Origin: an uncultured Phycisphaerales bacterium
GTDB taxonomy: Bacteria; Planctomycetota; Phycisphaerae; Sedimentisphaerales; Anaerobacaceae
DNA length: 64,000 nt
Direction of reading: 5' to 3'
Assembly (NCBI GenBank): GCA_963718665.1
Contig: OY970359.1
Coordinates: 416,001-480,000, forward strand
In this document: piece after piece, positions 24,024-38,283 of the stretch
Layout: every line of letters starts with the position of its first letter
Numbering within the stretch: the first letter of the stretch is position 1
Position numbers and translations under genes: made by a program
The notes under the pieces: generated by a model
What the model was told of the DNA's origin: nothing
Databases searched by the model: none
What the model saw: only the letters and a program-made list of their open reading frames with translations

Positions 24024-24098
24024 TCGCCTTTTTGGTATAATATCTCCCGCTGCACCGAACAAAATAATCAACCGTCAATAGCGCATTGAAAATCAAAA

Positions 24099-24461
24099 GA
24101 GCGGGTTGGGCAGCCGCTGGCTCTTCGGGGCCGGAGGAAAGTCCGAGCAGGACAGGGCACGGTGATGGCTAACAGCCACCTCCTCACTGCTTGCGAAAGC
24201 AAGAAGCGGGAACGGGATAGTGCCACAGAAAATACACAGCCGACGTCCCGAGCAATCGGGGCAGGCAATGGTGAAATGGTGCGGTAAGAGCGCACCGCGG
24301 AGTTGGCGACAATTCCGGCAGGGCAAACCCCACCGCCTGAAAGACCAAGCAGCCGGTGCTCGGCCCGGGCATTACCGGCGGGTAGGTCGCTTGAGCCAAC
24401 TGGTAACGGTTGGCCTAGATAAATGGTTGTCCAAGACAAAACTCGGCTTACAGACCCGCTC
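24099..24461 (+). ncRNA. rnpB: RNase P RNA (type A)
   Basis: GAGGAAAGTCC, AGTGCCACAGAAA, GGTAAGAGCGCACC, GGCAAACCCC, ACAAAACTCGGCTTA; P1 GAGCGGGT/ACCCGCTC. Confidence 0.97.
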
Positions 24462-24509
24462 TTTTGATTTTCCTTCTCGACGCAGGCCCGCAAACTTCAA
24501 AAAATCGCC

Positions 24510-25336: not shown

Positions 25337-26353
25337 TTAACGAGGTTTCACGCCTTCCTTTACGTCAATCCACTTCATCATCTTACGCAATTTACGTCCG
25401 ACATTTTCGAGCTTGCTGTTGTAATCCTTCGCATAGAGCTTGTTGAACTTCTTCAGCCCCGTCGCGTTTTCCTTCATCCATTCTTTTGCGAACTTGCCGC
25501 TGGTGATTTCCTTGAGGATTTTCTTCATCTCCGCCCGTGTCTTGGACGGGATGATTCTCGGCCCGCGAGTAAGGTCGCCGTATTCCGCCGTATCCGAAAT
25601 ACTATACCGCATATAGCTCAGCCCGCCTTGGTACATCAAATCAACGATGAGCTTCACCTCGTGCATACACTCAAAATACGCAATCTCCGGCTGATAACCC
25701 GCTTCCACAAGCGTATTGAACCCCGCCTTTATCAGTGCTGACAGGCCGCCGCAAAGCACGCACTGCTCCCCGAACAGGTCCGTCTCGGTCTCTTCCTTGA
25801 ACGTCGTCTTGATAATGCCCGCTCTCGCTCCGCCTATGCCGTTGCCCCAGGCAAGCGCAATCTTCAGAGCACCGCCCGTCGCGTCCTTCTCTACCGCCAC
25901 GATACAAGGCACGCCGCCGCCCTTCTGGTATTCGCTTCTGACCAAATGCCCCGGCCCTTTCGGCGCAATCATCACTACGTTATTGCCCTTTGGCGGAACA
26001 ATGTATTTGAAATGAATATTGAACCCGTGACAGAAACCAAGTGTCTGCCCCGGCACAAGATTCGGCTTAATATACTTCTCGTAAAGCTTCCCCTGCACAA
26101 CATCCGGCAGCGTAATGATAATCAGCGAAGCGCCTTTCATTGCCGTCTTGATATCAGTCGGCTTAAATCCGTGCTCTAACGCTATCTTGTAATTCGGCGT
26201 CCCCGGTAACTCCGCAACCGACACCTCGATGCCGCTGTCCCGCAGGTTCAAACTGTGAGCATGACCCTGACTGCCGTAACCGATCGTCGCAACCTTTTTG
26301 CCCTTCAACGGAGCAAGCGACGCGTCCTTCTCATAAAACATCTTCAACGCCAT
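25337..26353 (-). CDS. ilvC: Ketol-acid reductoisomerase
   Basis: [43 protein letters not shown]. Confidence 0.98.
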
Positions 26354-26388
26354 TGTTTTATTCTCCTTATTTTAATTTGCTTAAATTA

Positions 26389-26468
26389 CCCCCGCGGCTT
26401 CGCTTTTGCTCGCCTCTGCGTCTCTCGAGGTAAGTCGAGGCAGCAGGCGAAGCAAAACGGCGGGGGCG
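26389..26468. repeat. Nested palindrome upstream of ilvC
   Basis: CCCCGC..TTTTGCT-CGCCT...AGGCG-AAGCAAAA..GCGGGG. Confidence 0.55.
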
Positions 26469-26787
26469 ATATTTGCCTTACTTCATGGTTTTTCGCACGC
26501 TCACCGACCGGCCAGCCCGACGCTTGCGGTTTATCATCTTCCTGCCTTTACTCGTCCGCATCCGCACTAAAAATCCGCTCTTGCACTCCTCTTAATCTTA
26601 CTCTTGCGATGATTTTCCACGCCTTGTCTCCTTCATTCCTTTAGTATTTAGCCCTGGGTTTCACCCAGGGTTTCGGTTACTTTCAATCATCGTGGAATTA
26701 TACACCAATCCCCTTTAAATGAAAAGGCAATCCTTCCAAAAACTGATACCCCAACGACGTTTACTTGCCGCCCCTGCAATCTGCGTT

Positions 26788-27231
26788 TCAATGCCCCTCA
26801 ACGTATTCTATTCTGTTTTTCAATGACTTTTCATCGAAACAGAACTTCGTATTATATCCATTTGTCCACACCCTCCCCTTAAACCCGTTTTTCTGCAGCG
26901 CGACTCGCCCCGCGTTCTTGTAATAACCCACAATAACCCCTATTGGAACATCAACATACTCACACACGATATGAACGTGATTCGAGAACACCCTTGCCGC
27001 GAGAATCTTTTGCTTGAATCTCTTCGCCGCTTCCGTAATCGCCTCCCTTACAATCTCTTTGTCTTTCCGCCCCAATCGCTCCGGCTCATGCTCCAATTTC
27101 TTTTCGCAATCTTTTTTAATTGCGATGTTCTCTCCGCGAACCTCTCCATCTTTGACGTATCCCTTTTTCTCCCCCTGTAACCACGTCCCGTATATCGTCC
27201 ACGTCACCATATATCCGATTGTCTTCGCCAT
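26788..27231 (-). mobile_element. Y1 HUH transposase, REP-associated (RAYT/TnpA-REP, IS200-like)
   Basis: YMVTWTIYGTWL N-terminus, NHVH HUH motif, VWTNGY, C-terminal EYV tyrosine; flanked by palindromes. Confidence 0.85.
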
Positions 27232-27249
27232 ACGCAGATTTTATCCCAA

Positions 27250-27503
27250 TACCACTGGCTTTGCCAGTGGCGTATATAGCCCCCGGCTATGCCGGGGGGT
27301 GCAAACGCGAGGTCCGCTTTTACCCCACTATCTCACCGGGGTTTGCCCAATGAACGTCCGCTTCGGGCGTTTGTATATAGCCCCGGTCTCCGGCCGGGGT
27401 TGCAATCGCGAGGAATGCTTAACCCTTTATCCGCCGTAGGCGAATTGCTTATGTGAGGTCAACTTAAACCCTTTTTGAACGCCCGCTTCGGGCGTTTGTA
27501 TAG
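27250..27503. repeat. REP/BIME-like cluster: TA(G/C)-footed 8-bp-stem palindromes in tandem composite units
   Basis: Stems at 27252-27270, 27280-27298, 27381-27399; TGAACGYCCGCTTCGGGCGTTTGTATA at 27351 and 27476; a related palindrome at 26652-26670 on the other side of the transposase. Confidence 0.8.
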
Positions 27504-27524
27504 CAAGGAACCTGCCATATAGTA

Positions 27525-27935
27525 TTAATAAAACGTAATTTCTAATCCAAGCCCCAAACTGCCCGCCAATTGAATAAATTCCGGCGGGAAGTAATACCAT
27601 TTAACGGGAAACTCGTCACGGTCCTCGCGAGCAACGCCAAAATCCAAGGTTACATCTTCAACACCCGGATAAGCCAGAAGAGTAGATATTTGTTCTGAAT
27701 TTTCTTTATCTTCCAGAAAAACTACTGCGTCCTGAATCTGCTGTTTTAAATCTTCGAATCTAGCGTCACTGACACAAATATTAAATCCGGAATGATCTAT
27801 CTTAGGACCATCTGGTTTATTTTTATACCTTGGCTCTCCCAGGCGATGAAGACCGGATACTTGGCAGGGATGCTCCTTAAGATAAGCATCTACATTCAAC
27901 TTTTTACCGCCTACTCTAAGATAACATGACGACAT
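27525..27935 (-). CDS. Hypothetical protein on an AT-rich insert
   Basis: 136-aa ORF from MSSCYLRV; AT-richer than its flanks. Confidence 0.7.
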   Translation of the reverse strand: MSSCYLRVGGKKLNVDAYLKEHPCQVSGLHRLGEPRYKNKPDGPKIDHSGFNICVSDARFEDLKQQIQDAVVFLEDKENSEQISTLLAYPGVEDVTLDFGVAREDRDEFPVKWYYFPPEFIQLAGSLGLGLEITFY

Positions 27936-27964
27936 TGATAACCTCACAAAGCATCTTCCGCCCG

Positions 27965-28002
27965 GCAAAGTTGACAGGCAAAGGTGTTATTCTCTTCCGG
28001 CC
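27965..28002 (-). promoter_or_regulatory. 38-bp conserved site, copy 1
   Basis: 34/38 identical to 36983..37020. Confidence 0.75.
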
Positions 28003-28012
28003 ATAAGTTGGC

Positions 28013-28042
28013 AGTATACCGCTAAACTGGTCAGAAAAGCAA
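28013..28042 (-). promoter_or_regulatory. sigma70-like promoter
   Basis: TTGCTT-18-TATACT. Confidence 0.5.
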
Positions 28043-28209
28043 GAGTTTTAAGAATCCGCATCCCAAAATTTTACCCGCCCGCCATAAGGCGTCACTTGCG
28101 GGAGTAGTTTTAACGCAGGCGGGCCGCAATCCCAAATAAAAAATATGTTCAAGTGATTCGTTTTAGTGCTTTGAATTTGTTTCGGATTTAGGGTTTAGGA
28201 TTTCGGGTT

Positions 28210-28722
28210 TTAAGTGTCTGCCTCTTCGGTCGAACCACTAACCGTCTTTTCCTGTCTCGGCATCGCTATCGTCCCCGTCCGCGCGACGTTCTTTATCCCG
28301 TATGGCCGGCACATCTCGATAAACGCCTCGATTTTCTCCTCAGGCCCGCTTATCTCCACCATTATCGTCTTCTGTCCAATATCAACAACGTTGCCCTTGA
28401 AGGTCTCTATCAACGCCAGTATCTCAGGCCTCTTTTCCGCAGGCGCAGCGAAAGTTATCAGCATCAAATCTCTCGCGACCACCGTCTGGCCCGCAAAATC
28501 CTGGACCTTCACAACGGGTATTATCTTGGCAAGCTGTTTACGGACCTGCTCAAGCACCCTGTCATCGCCAATCACGACAATCGTCATCCGGCTAAGTTGC
28601 GGGTCCTCCGTCCGCCCGACGACTAACGAATCGATATTGAACGCCCTCGCCGCGAACATCCCCGAAACATGTGCCAAAACTCCCGGCTTATTCTCAACCA
28701 ACGCGCTTATTATATGTTTCAT
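28210..28722 (-). CDS. ilvN: Acetolactate synthase small (regulatory) subunit
   Basis: LVENKPGVLA, FNIDSL, SRMTI, VARTG. Confidence 0.96.
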   Translation of the reverse strand: MKHIISALVENKPGVLAHVSGMFAARAFNIDSLVVGRTEDPQLSRMTIVVIGDDRVLEQVRKQLAKIIPVVKVQDFAGQTVVARDLMLITFAAPAEKRPEILALIETFKGNVVDIGQKTIMVEISGPEEKIEAFIEMCRPYGIKNVARTGTIAMPRQEKTVSGSTEEADT

Positions 28723-28801
28723 AGGTCTTACCTTCCTGTCCCGGCATGCCTTTGGCCGGGATCCAGTTTTTACTTTTTACATTTTGATTTTTGATTTTCT
28801 T

Positions 28802-30535
28802 CTATGCCATACTTTCCAACATGTCTAATCCGTCCATCTCGTGCAGGGACTTACCCGACGGAACCATAGGCCAGACGTTTTCTTCCGGCTCAACCCTGAA
28901 ATCCACAACGCAGGGCATCTTCTCGCCTAACATCTTCTTTATCGCCTTCGGCACATCCGCCTTTTTCTCAACCGTTATCCCGACCGCGCCCAGCGCCTCA
29001 GCCACTTTCGAGTAATCCGGGTTCGCAAGATAACTCTTCGAATAACGCTTGTTATAGAATAGCTCCTGCCACTGCCTCACCATTCCCATATACCCGTTAT
29101 TCAAAATGCAGACCTTTATCGGCAGCTCATATTGGACCGCCGTCCTCAGCTCCGTCAGCGTCATATTGAAGCTGTGGTCCCCGTCAATATCGACAACGGT
29201 CGCCTCCGGCATCGCTATCTGCGCCCCTATCGCCGCGGGCAACCCATAGCCCATAGTTCCCAGACCGCCTGAAGTAATAAACTGTCTCGGCCTCTTGAAC
29301 CGGTAGAACTGCGCCGTCCACATTTGGTTTTGTCCGACGCCTGTCGTAACTATCGCGTCGCCGCCCGTCAATTCGCAAATCTGCTCAATCACATATTGCG
29401 GCTTTATATTCGTCGCCTTCCTGTCGTATCCCAGCGGATATTTCTTTTTCCACTGCGCAATCTTGGTGAACCAATCCTTGCGCTCGCGGTGCTCAACCAT
29501 CTTAGTCATCTCACCCAATATATATTTCGCGTCGCCCACAACCGGAATGTCCGCCCGAACGTTCTTCGCTATGCTCGCCGGGTCAATATCTATATGTATC
29601 ACCTTCGCGTGCGGCGCAAACGCCTTGACCTTGCCCGTCACCCTGTCATCGAACCGCGCGCCCACCGCTATCAGCAAATCGCACTCCTGCACCGCGTAAT
29701 TCGCAAATGCGGTTCCATGCATTCCGAGCATATCAAGCGATTCAGCGTTGTTCTGGTCATAACTTCCCAGCCCCAATAGCGTCATCGTAACCGGCAGATG
29801 CGCCTTATTCGCAAGGGCGCGCAGCTCCTCGCCCGCGTTGGCGCTGATAATCCCGCCGCCGACGTAAAGCACCGGCTTCTCCGATTTGTTTATCGCCTCG
29901 GCTGCCATTTCTATCTGCCGATGATGCCCCTTTATCTTCGGCTTATACCCCGGCAGTCGCATCTCGACGGCGGCGTCATATTCCGTCTTGGCGACCTGAA
30001 CATCGACCGGCAAATCAACCACCACCGGCCCAGGCCTGCCCGTCGAGGCGATAAAGAACGCCTCCTTAATCACCCGCGCCAGGTCCCTTACATCCTTGAC
30101 TATGCAATTATATTTTGTAACAGGCCGCGTGATACCCGTCGTATCCGCCTCCTGAAAAGCGTCATTGCCGATTAGCTCCGTCCGAACCTGCCCCGTTATG
30201 GCGACAAGCGGAATCGAATCCATCATCGCCGTGCCAAGCCCCGTAACAAGATTGCACGCCCCCGGCCCGCTCGTCGCGACTATCACGCCGACCTTACCGC
30301 TCGCCCGCGCATATCCGTCCGCCATATGTGCCCCGCCCTGCTCATGTCGCGGAATTATAAATCGAATCGGCGCATCATACAGCTTATCAAACAGGGGCAA
30401 TACCACTCCACCAGGGTAGCCGAACATTGTTTCAACGCCCGCGTCAATTAGTGCCTGGACGGCTATCTCAGCGCCTGACCTTTGAATTGAGGATTTTCCA
30501 GCCGAATCGGCTGACTGTGAAGAATCGGACTTCAT
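28802..30535 (-). CDS. ilvB: Acetolactate synthase large subunit
   Basis: FGYPGG, RHEQG, TSGPGA, GARFDDRVTG, TSGGLGTMG, LGMVRQWQ-like motif; AGGAG upstream of the ATG at 30535. Confidence 0.97.
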   Translation of the reverse strand: MKSDSSQSADSAGKSSIQRSGAEIAVQALIDAGVETMFGYPGGVVLPLFDKLYDAPIRFIIPRHEQGGAHMADGYARASGKVGVIVATSGPGACNLVTGLGTAMMDSIPLVAITGQVRTELIGNDAFQEADTTGITRPVTKYNCIVKDVRDLARVIKEAFFIASTGRPGPVVVDLPVDVQVAKTEYDAAVEMRLPGYKPKIKGHHRQIEMAAEAINKSEKPVLYVGGGIISANAGEELRALANKAHLPVTMTLLGLGSYDQNNAESLDMLGMHGTAFANYAVQECDLLIAVGARFDDRVTGKVKAFAPHAKVIHIDIDPASIAKNVRADIPVVGDAKYILGEMTKMVEHRERKDWFTKIAQWKKKYPLGYDRKATNIKPQYVIEQICELTGGDAIVTTGVGQNQMWTAQFYRFKRPRQFITSGGLGTMGYGLPAAIGAQIAMPEATVVDIDGDHSFNMTLTELRTAVQYELPIKVCILNNGYMGMVRQWQELFYNKRYSKSYLANPDYSKVAEALGAVGITVEKKADVPKAIKKMLGEKMPCVVDFRVEPEENVWPMVPSGKSLHEMDGLDMLESMA

Positions 30536-30633
30536 TACATACTCCTTTCGCAGCATATCCCGGAAATTACAGCTTTTCGGGCCTCTTTTGTCAGGCCTGT
30601 CGTTACCACCACAGCAACGACCTGCCCATACAA
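30535..30633 (-). CDS. Putative Val-rich leader peptide (MYGQVVAVVVTTGL...)
   Basis: TTG start, 5 Val in 6 codons, stop overlaps the ilvB ATG (TAATG). Confidence 0.4.
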   Translation of the reverse strand: MYGQVVAVVVTTGLTKEARKAVISGICCERSM

Positions 30634-30670
30634 AGTTTATAGCCCTGCTATAATCCCGTAATTCTGCTCA

Positions 30671-30699
30671 ATTATAGTATTTACGCACTACCCTGTCAA
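30671..30699 (-). promoter_or_regulatory. Consensus sigma70 promoter of the ilv operon
   Basis: TTGACA-17-TATAAT, exact consensus. Confidence 0.85.
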
Positions 30700-30838
30700 T
30701 TGTTTTCGGCAATTTTTCGCACCACTATCACAAATTATCCACCCTGCCGCCTTCGAAATTCGTATAAAATTATGTGTGCAGAACAATAAATAGAGCTATA
30801 ATAACACCCCTCCTTTAATAAAAATTTGGAGACCAACT

Positions 30839-31107
30839 ATGTGCGAACAATGCGGTTGCAACCACGATAAAACACAGGATGCCTTCGAGACGAAGGTCAA
30901 AGCGATAATCGAAGCCATCAGGCCGAATTTGCAAAGCCACGGCGGTGACGTCGAACTCGTCGCCACCGAAAAGGGCTCTACAGTCAAGGTCCGCCTTCAG
31001 GGCGAATGTTCCGGCTGCCCGGCGCAAGAATGACCCTCAAAATGGGAATCGAACGACTCCTCAAAGAAAAAGTCCCACAGGTCAAAGAAGTCATAGCGGT
31101 TGACTAA
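30839..31107 (+). CDS. NifU/NfuA C-terminal-type Fe-S protein, frameshifted near 31020
   Basis: IRPNLQSHGGDVEL, GECSGCP; continues MTLKMGIERLLKEKVPQVKEV in the -1 frame. Confidence 0.88.
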
Positions 31108-32208
31108 AAATTTTAGACACGAATACGAAGAAGCATTCTCCCGGTTTGCGGACGCCCCGGCTGCGAGGGCCTTCGGGCTTGGCAGGCATGCGTTGTTCAT
31201 ATTGCTCAAAGCCCTCGATGTAAACCCCGGTGACAAAGTAGGCGTCTGTGCTTTTACGTGCCTGGCTGTTGTAGAAGCTATTAAAGTTTGCGAAGCAATC
31301 CCCGTATATCTCGACATTGATGAATACCTCTGTATTGACCCGCATGAAATTCTTATACAGGATACCGGTTCTCTCAAAGTTGTGATTTTACAGCACACCT
31401 TCGGCAACCCGGGGCGATTCGAGCAGCTTCTGGCGGCCTGCAACAAAATCGGCGCAAAAGTTATCGAAGATTGTGCCCACTCGCTTGCGTGCACGTGGAA
31501 CAATCAAAAATTAGGCAAATGGGGCGAAGGAGCCGTAGGCCAGGGAGGGATGTTGACCGTCAATTCAAGCGGCTTACTCGAAAAGGTTGACCGTCAAATC
31601 AAGCGGTTCGCTGCGCCCGCATCCAAAAAATCAGAATTTATTATTGTCTCCCTTCGGCGAGCATATCACCCGTTCAGTCAGTCGCGTCTCGATTGTTACC
31701 TCGGATATAACTACTCCCGGCTGCGTAGTATGTTACATTTCAGGGGGAAATCTTTTCTGAAAAACAGCTTTCCTGAATGCGCGGATACCCCCGATTGGCC
31801 GGAGAAATAAAGGCAAAGGCGGGATTGAAACAAATCGAAAGCTGGCCTAAATTGCGGCAGATACGACTTCAAAATACCGCGATGATAGAGGAATCCTTCA
31901 GCAACGCTGGCCTGTCCCTTTGGCCCGTAGAACCTCAGGCAAACATCACAATGATGAGATACCCATTACGGGTATATAAGAAGTGGGAAATAGTCCATCG
32001 CGCAGGCATTCGAGGCCTCGACATCGCGGGCTGGTATTCCAGCCCCGTCCATCCGCTCAGTGATGCCGACCTCGCCAAAGTTGATTATCGCCGTGGCTGC
32101 TGCCCGAGAGCCGAAGGCACAATTGAACGATTAGTCCACCTGCCGACCGGCCCATCGCTCAATAAACACAAATTAGAAGCGATGATGAGAATATTAAACG
32201 GGGTTTAA
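31100..32208 (+). pseudogene. DegT/DnrJ/EryC1 aminotransferase, frameshifted near 31775 and apparently lacking the PLP-lysine segment
   Basis: GRHAL, AFTC, QHTFG, IEDCAH, VHLPT; WGEGAVGQGG lacks the usual SF...K stretch. Confidence 0.7.
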
Positions 32209-32588
32209 GATTGACTATGGGCGAGGGCTAAGAGGACGAGGAAATAAGCCGTGAAAGATACGAAGGCGAGCAGAAAGCCGGCGAGGGCAGGGATTGCGGC
32301 TGCGAAACTGGTTTTGTTGCGCCGGCAGCGTATTAACGACAATATGGCAAAGGTTACAGATGCAGCAGGCAGAATGGCGCAGAGAGTGTGAACGGTGTTA
32401 TAAAAAGGAGTTTCCCTCACAAGGCAAATATCGGTAGAGCTGTTGTGCAGGGCTATAATCCTGTGGATTGAGGCATAGAAAAGTGGTATCGCGGCGACGG
32501 CAAAAACGAGCGAAACGAGGCCCAGTCGGCTCGTCTTTGCACCGGGGCATACGGCTTCGATATTGTTTGTGTCCGGTTTTTCTGCCAT
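32205..32588 (-). CDS. Small membrane protein
   Basis: Three hydrophobic segments, KTSRLGLVSLV start. Confidence 0.65.
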   Translation of the reverse strand: MAEKPDTNNIEAVCPGAKTSRLGLVSLVFAVAAIPLFYASIHRIIALHNSSTDICLVRETPFYNTVHTLCAILPAASVTFAILSLIRCRRNKTSFAAAIPALAGFLLAFVSFTAYFLVLLALAHSQS

Positions 32589-32703
32589 TTTGGTTTCTCG
32601 TAGTTTATACGATTGCCGGCGGCTATCGGCCCGGAAAATTATTCGCCACGGCAACGACCCCATAACCGCTACCCGCTGTTCACTAAATACAAGCGACTAA
32701 CGA

Positions 32704-33297
32704 CTATCGACTGTCCGCTGTTTCTGGAAAATTTAACCTCGCAAATTCCCCGTGATATTTCTTCGCTGCTTTGTCGCGTGCTTTTGCCGCTTCTATCTCG
32801 TTTTTGAATCCGCCTATCCAGTAACTTTTCCCCTTATGCTTGATTTTAACAGCCCAGCGATTTTGTGCTTTCTCGTAAGATACCCCGATAAACCGCGATG
32901 TTGTCTTCGATTTGGTCTTTCGTTTGTTGCTCGAATTTTGTGCATGCGTCGCAAGACGCAGATTGTCCCTTCGATTATCTAACGACTCTCCGTTTTTGTG
33001 GTCAACAATTCGCCCCTTGGGTGCCCTCATAATCTCTCTGTGCAAATATACTGTTTTGGCTCCTCCCTTTTTGCTCCTGATGCCCCCTATGGCGTATGCT
33101 CTCCTTTCGTGACCGCCTAAGCACCACTTGATATGTCCAAAGCGGTAATAATCCGCCGGCTCAACTGTCGTCCATTCCCCCTCGCCTAAATATATCCTGC
33201 GAAACTCATACCCATATTTGTGCCTTCGATACAACATTACCGGCCAGGTGCAGATACGGTCTAACCAATTAGGTATCGTTACGTTAATCATTGTCAT
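32704..33297 (-). CDS. HNH endonuclease fused to an AP2 DNA-binding domain
   Basis: LHREIM...VDHKNGESLDNRRDNLR (HNH); SRFIGVS...W...IG.F..EIEAAKARDKAA...HGEFARLNF (AP2). Confidence 0.92.
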   Translation of the reverse strand: MTMINVTIPNWLDRICTWPVMLYRRHKYGYEFRRIYLGEGEWTTVEPADYYRFGHIKWCLGGHERRAYAIGGIRSKKGGAKTVYLHREIMRAPKGRIVDHKNGESLDNRRDNLRLATHAQNSSNKRKTKSKTTSRFIGVSYEKAQNRWAVKIKHKGKSYWIGGFKNEIEAAKARDKAAKKYHGEFARLNFPETADSR

Positions 33298-33599
33298 AAT
33301 GTCCTCTCCCTTGCCCTCGACTCAAGCTCCATAGGAACCGCAATCGGGGGTCCATTTTTTCGGAGCGCAGCGCAGATCCTCGGGGTTAGCTCCTTTGGTC
33401 TTCTGCCGGGAACCCATTTATTGTTCGTTGTTTATTGTTAGTTGTTCCTACAAACTATGAACCAACGACTAACGACTACAGATGATTTGCCTATCTTGGC
33501 GTGAAACTTGCCCTCCCGGGGCGAAATGTTTGCGCTTCTGCGCTACTACTGCCCTATCTTGGGCTTGCTACCTTGCGGCTCTCCGCTGCCTCTTTTTTT

Positions 33600-33682
33600 C
33601 GCCTGTTCTACTGCTCAACTTACTACTTTCCCGCGAAGCGCCGCCTGTTCTACTGCTCAACTTTCTACTCTCTCGCGAAGCG
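33600..33682. repeat. Two-copy tandem repeat, 42-bp period
   Basis: cgcctgttctactgctcaacttactactttcccgcgaagcg / cgcctgttctactgctcaactttctactctctcgcgaagcg. Confidence 0.85.
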
Positions 33683-34107
33683 TCCCGCTTCGCGCGTCCC
33701 TCTATATATAGAGTGATTTTGGGGGTGTTTTAAGGAGTTACGAAATATTTTTTTCCTGCCCAAAATCGGTAAGTTCTTGTAGGAAAAGGAATAAAAAAAA
33801 TTTCAAAAATTCCCGGATTTTTTTGGGTATATAGGTAATCTCTAAAAAACAGGTTTAGCCGCCGCCGGCATGGCGGCTTCCTTATAATGTTTAGCCCGGC
33901 AACTTTATTGCCGGGTCATAAAAATTGTAAAACCAATTTTATCGCGACCTATCCGGCGTAGCGCAAGCGAAGTCGGAAACGCGGGGCGGGAAAAAACGGT
34001 TGCTGTCACCATTATTCCCAACGGGGTTGGGTAAGTTGAAAACCCCCGGCAGAGAAATGTTTTTTTGTGAAAATAGGCGGTAGTTCTTAGTCTTCCTCTT
34101 TCGCATC

Positions 34108-35391
34108 TTACTGAGAGCGATCTTGGCTATCTTTAATTTTTGGCCAATGGCAATCTTTAAACTTTTTGCCACTGCCACAAGGACAAGGTTCATAAATTGA
34201 GACTTCTCTTTTTCTTACGACAAAATCCGCTTCTGAATCATCTAATGGAACTTGAGATGTATCTTTGGATATTTGAGAATTAACAAGATTCTTCATTCTT
34301 TCTACAAGTTTGGCTTCATCATCGCTTGATTTAGGTTCTATCCGCTTCCCACCAGGCTCCCAATGAGGAAAAAAACGTTTCCATAACTGGAAAGTAATAG
34401 ATTTTCCATTCGCAGGAGGTCCAAAGCCATATTGTGCTCCCCATACATCTTTTCTATGCTCTCCTAGTTTGCCCCACTCATACGACAGATTCTTCAAGTC
34501 TGCCTTTAAATCCTCCCCGGCGACAAATGTTTGGTCGGAATTTAGGAATGTTCCAGCAATAGACTTATGAAAATTGTCGTTAGAAACAAAAACCATGCAA
34601 AATGGCAAATAATAAATGTACTCTAAATCAATTTTATTAGTCGGCCTCGTTCCAATAAAGTTGCAAATCAATCCAAAGTAGAATAATACGAGGGCGTTAA
34701 AGCAGTAATATGCATAGGGTGAGAAGTCTTTAATCAACTTATATTCGCCGCGTTCCCACCTAATAAAAACACGCTGAGCCATTGGAAAATCGATACCAAA
34801 TTCCTCTATTAACCAGACCAAAAGATTCGTTTGATTATTTTCCTGTGACAAGAATTTGTTTACATATTGGTGCAATTGTTCAACACTATCAAATTGTTTC
34901 AATACTTTAATTTTTTGTTTGGCCGTATTTTTAAAAAGTTCCAAGTCTAAAGACCTTGTCGATTCCCGCCATTGCTCAGAAAGAATGTTTTCCGCTTCTG
35001 TGAAATTGCCAGATTTCCATTCATTAAGTGTTTTTTCTTCTGGCGAAACGTCAAATATTATCCCCTTCTTGCCAGAATCACCTTCCACAGGGACACCACC
35101 ACCTATATAAGGACGTCTTCTCATTTCCACCGGATACCCTAAAAGCGAATTTATAATCAGATATCTGTAATGTACGCTAATCGCTGAATCGAATGGCAGT
35201 ATTTTGTTTACCATACGCATTATTTGATCTTTGGAGACGGCTCCTTGCCTTGTTGGTTTTTTTAGGTCTCCAAGTATTTCTATGAGAAGGATCGGCGTTA
35301 TATTTATAAAATATAGTTTATTCAGAATAAATACCTCATCAAAAGAAAGTGACTGTAGTGCCGATTTGTCTAATATGATTGTTGGCCCCAT
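34108..35391 (-). CDS. SEC-C motif protein with a PIN-like N-terminal region
   Basis: C-terminal PCPCGSGKKFKDCH; IILDKS, LIEIL, IDLEY, VSND acidic motifs; AT-rich. Confidence 0.7.
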   Translation of the reverse strand: MGPTIILDKSALQSLSFDEVFILNKLYFINITPILLIEILGDLKKPTRQGAVSKDQIMRMVNKILPFDSAISVHYRYLIINSLLGYPVEMRRRPYIGGGVPVEGDSGKKGIIFDVSPEEKTLNEWKSGNFTEAENILSEQWRESTRSLDLELFKNTAKQKIKVLKQFDSVEQLHQYVNKFLSQENNQTNLLVWLIEEFGIDFPMAQRVFIRWERGEYKLIKDFSPYAYYCFNALVLFYFGLICNFIGTRPTNKIDLEYIYYLPFCMVFVSNDNFHKSIAGTFLNSDQTFVAGEDLKADLKNLSYEWGKLGEHRKDVWGAQYGFGPPANGKSITFQLWKRFFPHWEPGGKRIEPKSSDDEAKLVERMKNLVNSQISKDTSQVPLDDSEADFVVRKREVSIYEPCPCGSGKKFKDCHWPKIKDSQDRSQ

Positions 35392-35498
35392 TATTACCCT
35401 ATTTATTACCAAATAATATGTGGCTGTTCCTATTTAATTAATCCGCAAAAATCCTATCGCGAGCTGTTCAATTAAAGAATCTTCAGAATATTCAGTAA

Positions 35499-36412
35499 TT
35501 ACTCGCCATCTAAACTATCTTGTGATAAGCATACAAAATTATCTAGTGACAATCTCATATGTTCTGAGATTATAATTTCGACGTGTCTTCTTTCAAAAAA
35601 GTCTTTGCCAAAACAACACTCTTTTAATTTTTTACCGCTTCCGCAGGGGCAATCTTCATCGGCACCAGTGTCCTCAGCTATCTTGATTCTACGGGTGCTT
35701 TCCTCAGTACGAGAAATTCGTAATGGATTACACTTTTTAACAAACACTAAATCTTTAAGATACTCAACACCAGTAAAAGGTATCGACTTATTATTAATGG
35801 CCATCATCTTGCATCTTTTGTCTGCTGGATTTTCTACCAAAGACACGCTGAGAAGATTCTTGATTTCCTTGACAATACCGTAGGCTAATTTCCCCCTATA
35901 AAGCTCCCCTGCTATATGCTCGCACTCTAAGCTTTCCATATTCCTACCACAGATGCTGCAATCTACTCTACTCACAACAGCTTCAATGCTGGAAAAAACC
36001 TTGTAAGGATAAAGTTTTTCTAATGCCTGTGCTTGCCTTTCCAAAAATTTGAATAAAGAAGTTCTATCAAAATGCGAAAATCTTTTGAGCAAGCGGAGAG
36101 AATCCAAAACATCTTGTAGCGTATCCCACGATCCAGGATAAGAGCCAGCACAGATTTGGGACCAGTATTGGGCGTAGCAATTTAACAGAGAAGCAAACCT
36201 GTCGAAGATAAAGCAATCATTATAAAATTCGTCCGGACGATTATTGGTTCCGGATTTCTCGTAATCATTTACTAGGGCACAAGTTTTTCTGCGACTTGTT
36301 TGGCGGATTCAAAATTTAAATTCGCCAACTCATTATAGTAGGACTCAAGGGTTCCTCGGCAATCAAGCCAATATTGTTGCAGACTCTCTGTTTTGAGCAA
36401 GATATTATCCAT
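35499..36412 (-). CDS. SEC-C motif protein, frameshifted in an A5 run near 36285
   Basis: ATG at 36412 overlaps the upstream stop; adding one A joins MDNILLK... to the 202-aa ORF; CSICG...CEH..G, VSLVENPAD, CPCGSGKKLKECC. Confidence 0.7.
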
Positions 36413-36878
36413 TTATGAAATCATTAATATCAAACTGTTTGATTTTTTTTAGCCCTTCGACAGGACCGTTATATTCGAATTTCTTAAACTTGCCTTTGTC
36501 TTTATAAATAACGTTTAGATGAGCCTTAGGGTCATCTTTTGAAAGGTCGCCTCGCACCATAGATTTAAGGTAGTCATAGACAAAGTTAAGAAAAAGCGGT
36601 AACGCAACGTTTGTCGCCAAGAAAACCATGGGAAGCCATATCTCGGACGATTTTAAATCGATTACGTTCTCACATGAACTGATTTTAACGCTTATTTCTG
36701 ACTTGTTCTGTCTGAGCCATTTAGCGAATCTATAAGTATCTGGCTTTAGGACTTCATGACCTTTTCTAAAATTATCTTCTGCAGAAAGAAAGATACCATT
36801 AGAATTTTCGATGAATTCTTTGCATTCTTTGGCAGGTTCAATTTCTGCTAAGGTAAAAAGCTTTTTTTCGTTTTCCAT
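36405..36878 (-). CDS. Hypothetical protein with one hydrophobic segment
   Basis: 157 aa, AAGGA RBS, first gene of the AT-rich island. Confidence 0.75.
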   Translation of the reverse strand: MENEKKLFTLAEIEPAKECKEFIENSNGIFLSAEDNFRKGHEVLKPDTYRFAKWLRQNKSEISVKISSCENVIDLKSSEIWLPMVFLATNVALPLFLNFVYDYLKSMVRGDLSKDDPKAHLNVIYKDKGKFKKFEYNGPVEGLKKIKQFDINDFING

Positions 36879-36982
36879 AGGTTCGTTCCTTATATTTCAA
36901 TTTCCCCGCTTATCAGTTTCGGCAAAAGCAAAATCATATTTCAGACGAACCTAACTATCTGTAAACAGCGTTTTCCAGAACA

Positions 36983-37020
36983 GCAAAGTTGACGGGCAAA
37001 GGTGCGAATCTCTTCCGGCC
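36983..37020 (-). promoter_or_regulatory. 38-bp conserved site, copy 2
   Basis: 34/38 identical to 27965..28002. Confidence 0.75.
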
Positions 37021-37045
37021 TTAAAAAAACGTTTTCACCAAACCC

Positions 37046-37074
37046 ACTATAGATTTTCATAAACGAGGTATCAA
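37046..37074 (-). promoter_or_regulatory. sigma70-like promoter
   Basis: TTGATA-17-TATAGT. Confidence 0.6.
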
Positions 37075-37155: not shown

Positions 37156-38283
37156 CTATCCGCTATTCTTAAGATGCTTTGCTATCCTGCTCGCGCTTGG
37201 CGCTTTTATCACTCCTCTTTCGGTGATAATCGCCGTGATGTTCTCCGCAGGCGTTACATCAAACGCAGGATTGTAAATATCAACGCCATCGGGCACTATC
37301 TTTTTAGTGCCCGTCTTGAGCGAAGTCGAAGGGCTGACTCCACCTATAAACCGAATCTCCTCCGATGGCCGCTGCTCGATAGGAATATCTTTACCTGTCT
37401 TTGTTTTCAAATCGAACGTGCTCGATGGCGCAGCGATATAAAACGGTATTTTGTGCGCTTTAGCAAGAACGCTCAGGGCATAAGTACCAGTTTTATTGGC
37501 TGCGTCGCCATTGGCGGCGATTCTGTCTGCCCCGGTGATGACCATATCTATTTTGCCATCCCTCATAAGCGCAGCAGCCATATTATCGCAGATGACCGTC
37601 GTATCGATTTTGGCCCGTTTCAATTCCCAGGCGGTCAATCGCGAACCCTGTAACAAAGGCCTTGTCTCATCGACAAAAACCGTGAATTTTTTGCCTCGTT
37701 TTTTCGCTTCATACAAAACCGATAAGGCCGTGCCCTGCCCTGCTGTCGCCAATGCCCCCGCGTTGCAATGCGTCAATATCCCTGCTCCACTTTTTATGAA
37801 TCTGGCGCCGTTAGCGCCGATTTTGCGGCACATCTCGATATCTTCCCGGCAAATATCATTGGCCTCTTTCAAAACCGCTTTGCAAAGCTCATCCAACGTC
37901 CCTGCCGAACTTTTTTCAGCGCATTTTACTATTCTTTCAAGTGCCCATCGCAGGTTGACAGCCGTGGGCCTGCTGCTCGCCAAGTATTCGCAATCCCGTT
38001 TCAATAACTTCACCGCCAAGTTCGCAGAGTTTATTTTATCTTTTTCTCTGCGGTCTTTGCGAGCTCGGCGGTAAATATTTTTCTGTAATGCCAAAACCGC
38101 CCCATATCCCCCTGCTACCCCGATTGCCGCGCATCCCCGAACCGCCAATGTCTTTATCGCGCCATATAACTGCTTAACGCCTACACAGCGAATTATTTTA
38201 TATTCCCCCGGCAGTTTCCTCTGGTTGATAATCTCCAGACAGCCATCGACCCCGCCAATCCATTTAAGCGTCTTTACCACCAT
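37156..38283 (-). CDS. mtnA: Methylthioribose-1-phosphate isomerase, with two in-frame repeat-derived insertions
   Basis: VRGCAAIG, SRPTAVNL, LTHCNAGALAT, ETRPLLQGSRLTAWEL, GADRIAANGD, NPAFDVTP. Confidence 0.96.
   Translation of the reverse strand: MVVKTLKWIGGVDGCLEIINQRKLPGEYKIIRCVGVKQLYGAIKTLAVRGCAAIGVAGGYGAVLALQKNIYRRARKDRREKDKINSANLAVKLLKRDCEYLASSRPTAVNLRWALERIVKCAEKSSAGTLDELCKAVLKEANDICREDIEMCRKIGANGARFIKSGAGILTHCNAGALATAGQGTALSVLYEAKKRGKKFTVFVDETRPLLQGSRLTAWELKRAKIDTTVICDNMAAALMRDGKIDMVITGADRIAANGDAANKTGTYALSVLAKAHKIPFYIAAPSSTFDLKTKTGKDIPIEQRPSEEIRFIGGVSPSTSLKTGTKKIVPDGVDIYNPAFDVTPAENITAIITERGVIKAPSASRIAKHLKNSG

What the first reader, a model, noticed from the sequence alone, without database searches (positions are those of the whole stretch)
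27965..37074. Promoter + conserved 38-bp site + foreign genes, twice: possible gene-capture or expression platform
Seen: GCAAAGTTGACRGGCAAAGGTGnnAnTCTCTTCCGGCC occurs at 27965-28002 and 36983-37020 (34/38 identical) and contains a GCAAAG direct repeat at 13-bp spacing. Each copy lies on the minus strand just downstream of a sigma70-like promoter (TTGCTT-18-TATACT; TTGATA-17-TATAGT). Each lies just upstream of unrelated AT-rich genes (27525-27935; the 34108-36878 island), and the sequence around the two copies is not shared. Known: integrons use the same layout (promoter, att site, captured cassettes). Inference: the site is a recombination or landing site for cargo genes, a shared operator, or a short cis-acting leader RNA. 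No recombinase is visible in the window.
Basis: partly seen in the sequence, partly recalled or inferred. Interest (0 to 1): 0.8.

Follow-up and report, generated by a model that had tools for sequence, protein, structure and literature searches.

The report
Shared leader on dispersed gene-capture heads
The repeat is the constant middle piece of a promoter-plus-leader module, scattered through the chromosomes of one group of sediment planctomycetes, that stands in front of ever-changing foreign genes; it likely descends from an integron that lost its integrase and likely lets promoters and cargo genes be swapped by ordinary recombination.

Summary
The 38-bp match is real (34/38) and is the core of a ~50-bp element: 9 strong and 1 weak copy in this genome, 18 of 23 congeneric genomes, 101 distinct copies collected, confined to one order. 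It follows a sigma70-like promoter (or a recurring AT-rich module) and precedes co-oriented low-GC cargo (58/62); orthologous ilvN and mtnA sites are empty or differently loaded. Four upstream modules and several downstream docks recombine freely around it. In 30 of 101 copies it is followed by an attI-like site resembling those of true integrons, sometimes with an attC cassette, so the integron analogy holds for the platform; but the 38-mer is not the att site, neither window copy has one, and no integrase is adjacent or in this genome. No covariation, no parent protein, no wider regulon. Best reading: an integrase-less, mobile promoter-leader head whose core serves as shared homology; an antitermination or protein-binding role is not excluded. 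The scan noted this promoter family and its docks before on other DNA of this genome (e1-9924967).

The parts
28013..28042 (-). sigma70-like promoter of type A (TTGCTT-18-TATACT); itself a dispersed repeat, 15 copies at E<0.001 in the genome, 7 of them followed by the core
   Evidence: activity untested
27945..28005 (-). copy 1 of the leader element (38-bp core 27965-28002 plus degenerate 3' extension)
27525..27935 (-). cargo gene 1 (136 aa, GC 0.41, weak DUF4279 below cut-off), start codon 30 bp after the core, no attI or attC seen
   Evidence: not found in any of 39 stretches fetched around relatives' ilvN, mtnA and one intI
26788..27231 (-). Y1/RAYT-like HUH transposase gene with REP-like hairpins at about 27350-27500, at the far end of cargo 1
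   Evidence: Y1_Tnp over cut-off; REP_Tyr_transpos below cut-off
37046..37074 (-). sigma70-like promoter of type B (TTGATA-17-TATAGT); recurs in relatives with and without the core
   Evidence: activity untested
36963..37023 (-). copy 2 of the leader element (38-bp core 36983-37020 plus degenerate 3' extension)
36890..36938 (-). relic of the 3' end of a type I restriction hsdS gene, left between the core and the present cargo
   Evidence: 29 bp identical to the end of an intact 386-aa Methylase_S gene in L217
34108..36878 (-). cargo island 2: three co-oriented ORFs (157 aa unknown; 202 aa and 434 aa with SEC-C motifs), GC 0.37
   Evidence: no PADLOC hit at 1e-8; not found in relatives' stretches
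32704..33297 (-). HNH-AP2 endonuclease gene closing the variable region; one of 27 paralogues
28210..28722 (-). ilvN, host gene upstream of head 1 (followed by heptamer-type repeats)
37156..38283 (-). mtnA, host gene upstream of head 2 (followed by heptamer-type repeats)

Best explanation
The motif is the constant ~50-bp leader of a dispersed expression head (promoter, leader, optional docking site, cargo) that likely descends from the promoter-to-attI interval of an integron that lost its integrase and that likely acts as shared homology through which host recombination swaps promoters, docks and cargo genes at chromosomal hot spots. Shown: the anatomy, copy number, orientation, the free pairing of upstream modules with downstream docks, and reloading of orthologous loci. 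Inferred: integron ancestry, transcription from the promoters, capture of cassettes at the attI-like docks by an integrase acting in trans or earlier in the cargo's history, and RecA-type exchange inside the leader. In the two window copies the dock is gone: copy 1 is fused directly to its gene and copy 2 to a left-over hsdS end.
For: First ORF downstream co-oriented in 58 of 62 copies and GC lower downstream in 58 of 62; 90 cargo clusters among 101 copies, many defence-like (AbiEii, DRT, AbiL/AriA-type ATPases, NucC-like, KAP) and 28 of 57 without a Pfam match. Upstream module (A 57, B 11, C 11, D 15, unassigned 7) and dock (attI-like 30, TIR-like 29, other 5, none 37) occur in almost all combinations and are statistically independent (MI 0.04, p 0.52, n 44). 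Same cargo behind different promoters with homology starting at the 5' edge of the element (L187/L258, L009/L132); 7 of 10 locus clusters keep the core but differ in cargo, one with 5 cargoes in 5 copies (of the other 3, one is two copies on one contig). attI-like module: conservation ends right after GTT and resembles the site downstream of real intI in L193 (E 0.019) and, by eye, L099; attC 5' halves follow in 4 of 27 att-type, 0 of 27 TIR-type and 2 of 40 other copies against 42 of 2000 random windows. 11 of 22 copies from other genera end in the attI-like site by eye. hsdS relic shows that heads outlive their cargo. comEC is present.
Against: The core was not found at any of 7 intI loci (only a partial E 0.074 hit in L188), so integron ancestry is inferred from adjacency alone. 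The attC enrichment is marginal (Fisher p 0.055) and a stricter detector found none (it also missed 2 of 3 control sites). About 50 bp at a median 79% pairwise identity is short and diverged for RecA-type exchange (own knowledge). Pure inertia explains poorly why the core is kept behind four upstream modules although direct repeats on both sides allow its deletion (25 of 101 copies keep both repeats; L268 shows such a deletion). Copies are related, so counts and p-values overstate. No expression data.
Confidence: 0.5

Rival explanations
1. An unstructured cis-acting leader signal (boxA- or ops-like) that loads an elongation factor so that RNA polymerase reads through AT-rich untranslated or poorly translated cargo without Rho termination.
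For: Always sense, normally 10-50 nt after the predicted start site, single-stranded; kept behind four upstream modules; the left half alone recurs in a second head type (L259, L295); rho, nusB and an UpxY-like NusG paralogue are encoded. The CYTTTG run resembles the B. subtilis boxA AUGAUCUUUGAAA (PMC13753749, passages).
Against: Core matrices score near zero on this genome's own 16S and 23S leaders, whose boxA-like tracts differ in the 5' half; the position that is A in boxA is A in only 17 of 101 copies; does not fit GYTCTTTAANA (PMC5725501, passages); no copy at the cluster headed by the NusG paralogue; 8 of 15 type-A promoters in this genome lack it.
Confidence: 0.2
2. A site-specific recombination or HUH-transposase recognition site at which core-dock-cargo units are joined to resident promoters.
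For: Unrelated upstream sequences converge on the TAAGGCCGG box, including a Bro-N coding sequence in L154; internal symmetry (flanking CCGGMAGA repeats 39 bp apart, TTGCC-N4-GGCAR palindrome with a more variable centre); a Y1 transposase gene lies beyond cargo 1.
Against: Junctions fall at several places 5' and 3' of the core; empty ilvN and mtnA alleles carry no half-site; I saw no recombinase gene recurring next to copies in the ORF lists (upstream ORFs were not scanned against Pfam); hairpin repeats interrupt the core in L083, L160 and L261; 0 matches in viral contigs.
Confidence: 0.12
3. A relic of a coding sequence, or a short leader ORF like ORF-11 of attI1, conserved through codons rather than as a site.
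For: Variability is 3-periodic (0.22 vs 0.10 and 0.11; permutation p 0.025); the common spacer lengths between the GGCCGG box and the core are 9, 12, 15, 18, 21; another coding relic (hsdS) sits in copy 2; short ORFs in attI1 aid cassette translation (PMC8876359, passages).
Against: Counting distinct alleles, no frame stands out (0.25-0.31 synonymous); no parent protein: 0 hits, 4 hits of which 3 are calls over the motif itself, 13 hits of which the five I read with a match across the profile are short calls over the motif, only motif copies or weak hits in 301 genomes; the sense frame has ATG/GTG in 15 of 46 and a TGA in 17 of 101 copies.
Confidence: 0.1
4. A transcription-factor operator that co-regulates the cargo genes.
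For: Direct repeat at 13 bp and a palindrome just downstream of the promoter, a repressor-like position.
Against: Top non-copy matches of four sub-motifs are intergenic in 3, 6, 9 and 6 of 60 cases against 14% expected; six inspected were not heads; nothing similar upstream of lexA by eye; 50 conserved bp is long for an operator.
Confidence: 0.06
5. A structured leader RNA or riboswitch.
For: A small hairpin can be drawn in the 3' half (88.9% of cells paired).
Against: 0 compensatory pairs, 500/500 shuffles as good; RNAalifold predicts no pair; mean folding z -0.06 over 57 copies and no covariation for two candidate helices; no Rfam match.
Confidence: 0.03

Closest known systems
Integron platform (intI, Pc, attI), Treponema-type with intI transcribed towards attI (PMC3607928, passages; PMC4889954, passages)
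   Same: Promoter, then a fixed leader, then in 30 of 101 copies an attI-like site whose conservation ends at GTT, then promoterless co-oriented genes, a few with attC.
   Different: No adjacent intI; many dispersed copies per genome rather than one attI; promoters interchangeable; most copies, including both in the window, have no attI and no attC; the 38-mer is upstream of the att site, not the site.
CALIN and delta-attI-type cassettes (PMC4889954, passages; PMC9668308, passages; PMC12901181, abstract only)
   Same: Integron parts without an integrase; attI-like arms also recur between tandem genes in relatives.
   Different: [quoted passage not shown]
Putative mobile promoters (PMC3575422, first 10,000 of 13,572 characters read)
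   Same: At least 80% identity over at least 50 nt upstream of unrelated genes: copy 1 vs C1:1626497 82% over 105 nt; copy 2 vs C1:1626497 92% over 50 nt.
   Different: Mostly pairs there; here a modular family in which the leader outlasts the promoter and is fused to docking sites.
TIRtrons/TIRYT terminal repeats with GGGGWSAS (PMC3733652, passages)
   Same: 29 of 101 copies are followed by a TIR-like tract on the opposite strand.
   Different: The core is not the TIR; no TIRYT gene beside the heads was identified; neither window copy has the tract.
boxA/Nus antitermination (PMC5725501, PMC13753749, PMC3177189, passages) and RfaH ops/JUMPStart (recalled, no call)
   Same: Short conserved unstructured tract in the 5' leader of horizontally acquired AT-rich genes.
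   Different: Sequence does not fit boxA consensus or this genome's rrn leaders; no link to the NusG paralogue shown.

Membership tests
Integron | intI gene adjacent to attI | tested here: not met
   No match over the TIGR02249 cut-off in G000; 1 of 24 genus genomes and 4 of 201 order genomes have one; core not found at 7 intI loci
Integron | attI with G/TT crossover at the head of the cargo | tested here: not met
   Not in the two window copies, and the 38-mer is not this site; met by a separate downstream module in 30 of 101 copies
Integron | Pc promoter facing the cassettes | tested here: inconclusive
   Conserved sigma70-like hexamers at correct spacing; no transcript data
Integron | cassettes ending in attC | tested here: not met
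   None in window cargo; 5' halves in 4 of 27 att-type copies elsewhere
Integron | IntI-dependent attC x attI recombination | not testable with these tools
   needs a recombination assay
CALIN | two or more attC without intI | tested here: not met
   0 attC halves in window 26300-27960 and 33300-36980 (simple pattern, no covariance model)
Putative mobile promoter | >=80% identity over >=50 nt upstream of non-paralogous genes in one genome | tested here: met
   cargo unrelated. The two window copies alone share 88% over 42 nt, just under the length
Structured cis-regulatory RNA | covarying base pairs and stable fold | tested here: not met
boxA antiterminator | match to the host's rrn boxA | tested here: not met
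boxA antiterminator | NusB/NusE binding and Rho read-through | not testable with these tools
   nusB and rho present
IS/MITE end | paired terminal inverted repeats and target duplication around the cargo | tested here: inconclusive
   No inverted second copy in the genome scans; CCGGMAGA direct repeats flank the core in 25 of 101 copies
Decayed coding sequence | intact parent protein family | tested here: not met
   short queries, so a weak test

The most novel reading that the evidence does not exclude
A chromosome-wide, integrase-free gene-capture and expression system: one leader signal that protects foreign AT-rich genes from termination is reused with interchangeable promoters and with docking sites of two unrelated recombination systems, at about ten hot spots per genome bounded by HNH-AP2 nuclease genes.
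Probability: 0.2. Interest if true: 0.8.

Novelty: new variant of a known kind. Interest (0 to 1): 0.5.

Why it matters
It shows integron parts being taken apart and reused: the promoter-leader head survives without integrase, multiplies, and serves cargo that arrives by several routes, much of it defence-like. It gives a searchable marker for the variable sites of an uncultured planctomycete group and a set of attI-like sites for a lineage where attI is not catalogued. If the core also counters termination, it would be a general solution to expressing foreign genes; if it is only shared homology, it is a clear natural case of promoter reuse.

Tried and rejected
Rfam at E<=5 on 20000-45000: nothing on the motif. 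Two candidate helices and whole-alignment folding: no covariation. Three reading frames that looked protein-like were examined and two searched: no parent. A selenocysteine-like reading of the TGA/TGY codon was dropped: no conserved start. boxA and operator readings: see rivals. Viral contigs: 0 and 0. Of 21 exact matches in the species collection, three (L100, L110, L120) lack promoter and 3' extension and look like chance matches. Outside the order: 4 weak partial hits (E 0.003-0.01) in a 150-genome class sample. Sequencing runs: no RNA holder listed. One contig of run X2 joins mtnA, promoter B and the core to the cargo of the C1:1626497 copy; the two copies share about 31 identical bases, and X1 shows that stretch as a 31-base repeat contig, so this may be a mis-join and is not counted. 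A strict attC detector was too insensitive (1 of 3 control sites). Earlier-finding look-ups by sequence and by words gave nothing. Literature: 'Sedimentisphaerales' + 'integron' 0 papers; solo/orphan attI terms gave nothing relevant, the search being swamped by one term; listings showed no description of this element. Supplements (for example the archaeal attI alignment of PMC9668308, a figure) were not seen and may bear on the attI assignment. Rows dropped: 6 of 63 copies with indels, 10 of 81; only att- and TIR-type copies with an assigned upstream module (44 of 81) in the independence test.
Full report
Observation. The two 38-mers match at 34 of 38 positions, carry the 13-bp direct repeat, and lie on the minus strand behind TTGCTT-18-TATACT and TTGATA-17-TATAGT. 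In the 2.61-Mb single-contig genome only four places score 34-38 and none 30-33. Cargo is 0.41 and 0.37 GC against 0.49.

Family. Profile searches find 9 strong copies in the genome (E<=2.2e-6) and a weak tenth. A 22-base pattern hits 18 of 23 other genomes of the genus, with 0 hits for the reversed control; a sequence-only model hits 16 of 120 other genomes in a family sample and gives only 4 weak partial hits in a 150-genome class sample; a BLAST over 201 order genomes adds clear copies in two other families. An exact scan of the species collection gave 21 loci, most titled Sedimentisphaerales, Phycisphaerales or Phycisphaerae MAGs; metagenomes gave 19, viral contigs none. After merging identical contexts I hold 101 copies. 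Conservation runs from a GGCCGG/AGAGA box through CACCTTTGNCCGTCAACWTTGC to a TTGCC-N4-GGCAR palindrome, about 50 bp, median pairwise identity 79%.

What follows it. The first ORF downstream is co-oriented in 58 of 62 copies and GC falls in 58 of 62 (0.49 to 0.41). The 101 copies lead 90 cargo clusters: AbiEii, a DRT-type reverse transcriptase, AbiL/AriA-type ATPases, KAP NTPase, NucC-like, HNH, Bro-N, kinases, and 28 of 57 with no Pfam match. Between ilvN and ilvC, of 20 stretches 8 are empty, 4 hold other genes and 8 are rearranged or cut by contig ends; one (L078) has a degenerate core. After mtnA, of 19 informative stretches 2 have the core with other cargo and 2 have promoter B without it; none carries the window's cargo. 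In this genome 7 of 10 cores have a co-oriented HNH-AP2 gene within 11 kb downstream against 5.2% for random sites (two cores share one gene). These are hot spots that are reloaded.

Modularity. Four upstream modules (A, B and D with sigma70-like hexamers; C an AT-rich tract) and several downstream docks occur in nearly all combinations and are independent among the 44 classifiable att- and TIR-type copies (p 0.52), while core variants at positions 9 and 18 track the dock (p 0.004, 0.002, uncorrected and on related sequences). The same cargo stands behind different promoters with homology beginning at the 5' edge of the element (L187/L258, L009/L132), and the same locus keeps a core under different cargo. 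The core is dispensable for a head: 8 of 15 type-A promoters here lack it, and L268 shows its loss between flanking direct repeats.

The integron link. A lead from e1-9924967 was tested. In 30 of 101 copies a module ending TATAATCATTGTT follows the core; its conservation stops after GTT, and it resembles the site downstream of true intI genes in L193 and L099, where intI reads towards attI as in Treponema (PMC3607928 passages). attC 5' halves follow in 4 of 27 att-type copies, 0 of 27 TIR-type and 2 of 40 others (background 42 of 2000; Fisher p 0.055), with a complete-looking attC in L244. Half of the 22 copies from other genera end in this site (11 by eye), which suggests promoter-core-attI is the older layout. 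Yet intI is absent from this genome, passes the cut-off in 1 of 24 genus and 4 of 201 order genomes, and the core was not found at 7 intI loci. Neither window copy has attI or attC: copy 1 runs into its gene after 30 bp, copy 2 into a relic hsdS end, 29 bp identical to an intact hsdS in L217. Another 29 copies are followed by a TIR-like tract of the GGGGWSAS kind (PMC3733652 passages).

What the core is not. No Rfam match, no predicted consensus pair, no compensatory change, folding z about 0. No regulon: sub-motif matches elsewhere are not enriched between genes. No match to this genome's rrn leaders, although rho, nusB and an UpxY-like paralogue exist. A codon-like periodicity (p 0.025) and in-frame spacer lengths are real hints, but four protein searches returned only gene calls over the motif itself or unrelated weak hits.

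Mechanism. Most likely (0.5) the core is the inherited leader of an integrase-less Pc-attI platform. Heads settle behind housekeeping genes; cargo enters through an attI-like or TIR-like dock or by deletion-fusion; incoming DNA from relatives (comEC present; a gene-transfer-agent route is proposed in e1-8305454 and untested here) would exchange whole or partial heads using the core upstream and the HNH-AP2 region downstream as homology. Anatomy and reassortment are shown; transcription, capture in trans and the recombination route are inferred. The main rival (0.2) is that the core is kept because it signals antitermination; a site-specific site (0.12), coding relic (0.1), operator (0.06) and structured RNA (0.03) follow.

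Comparison and verdict. It works like an integron's promoter-attI head and meets the published definition of a putative mobile promoter (82% over 105 nt; 92% over 50 nt; PMC3575422), but fails integron and CALIN membership in the window. I found no description in print. The promoter family and its two dock types were noted earlier by this scan on other DNA of the same genome; new here are the separation of core from promoter, the reassortment test, the negative RNA, protein and operator tests, and the hsdS relic. New variant of a known kind; interest 0.5.

Noticed in passing
window 36890-36938 (-): Relic 3' end of an hsdS gene inside the leader of island 2; a similar relic follows the core in L025.
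   Followed up: yes
window about 26480-26620 (-), between ilvN cargo and ilvC: Small unlisted ORF that reads like ribosomal protein L34 (name recalled), conserved in the empty ilvN-ilvC interval of relatives; appears frameshifted in the window, where contigs of X1 show an extra base near 26584.
   Followed up: partly
window 31020, 31782, 36279: Contigs of X1, X2 and in part X3 have one extra base at each place, so the split DegT-type aminotransferase (31100-32208) and the gap at 36107-36405 may be assembly errors.
   Followed up: partly
window 26788-27500: Y1/RAYT-like transposase with REP-like hairpins next to cargo 1; a second Y1 gene at C1:1274084.
   Followed up: partly
L261, L284, L292, L295, L268 and G000 C1:1626536-1627173: attI-like arms recur between tandem genes with little or no attC, like delta-attI cassettes.
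   Followed up: partly
L259, L295: A second head type keeps only the left half of the core before a different linker and the attI-like site.
   Followed up: no
L061, L064, L067, L085-L088: The ilvB-ilvN-degT-mtnA neighbourhood is inverted or reshuffled among congeneric genomes, with breaks at the same hot spots.
   Followed up: no
G000 C1:884398-885477 and C1:1296188-1297429: Two rho-like genes (one below the family cut-off); 16S and 23S rRNA genes are unlinked.
   Followed up: no
window 24098-24466 (+): RNase P class A RNA gene.
   Followed up: yes
L099 (G004:C269): Complete integron with intI reading towards attI and three attC sites on a short contig whose intI is 59% GC; may be a bin contaminant.
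   Followed up: partly
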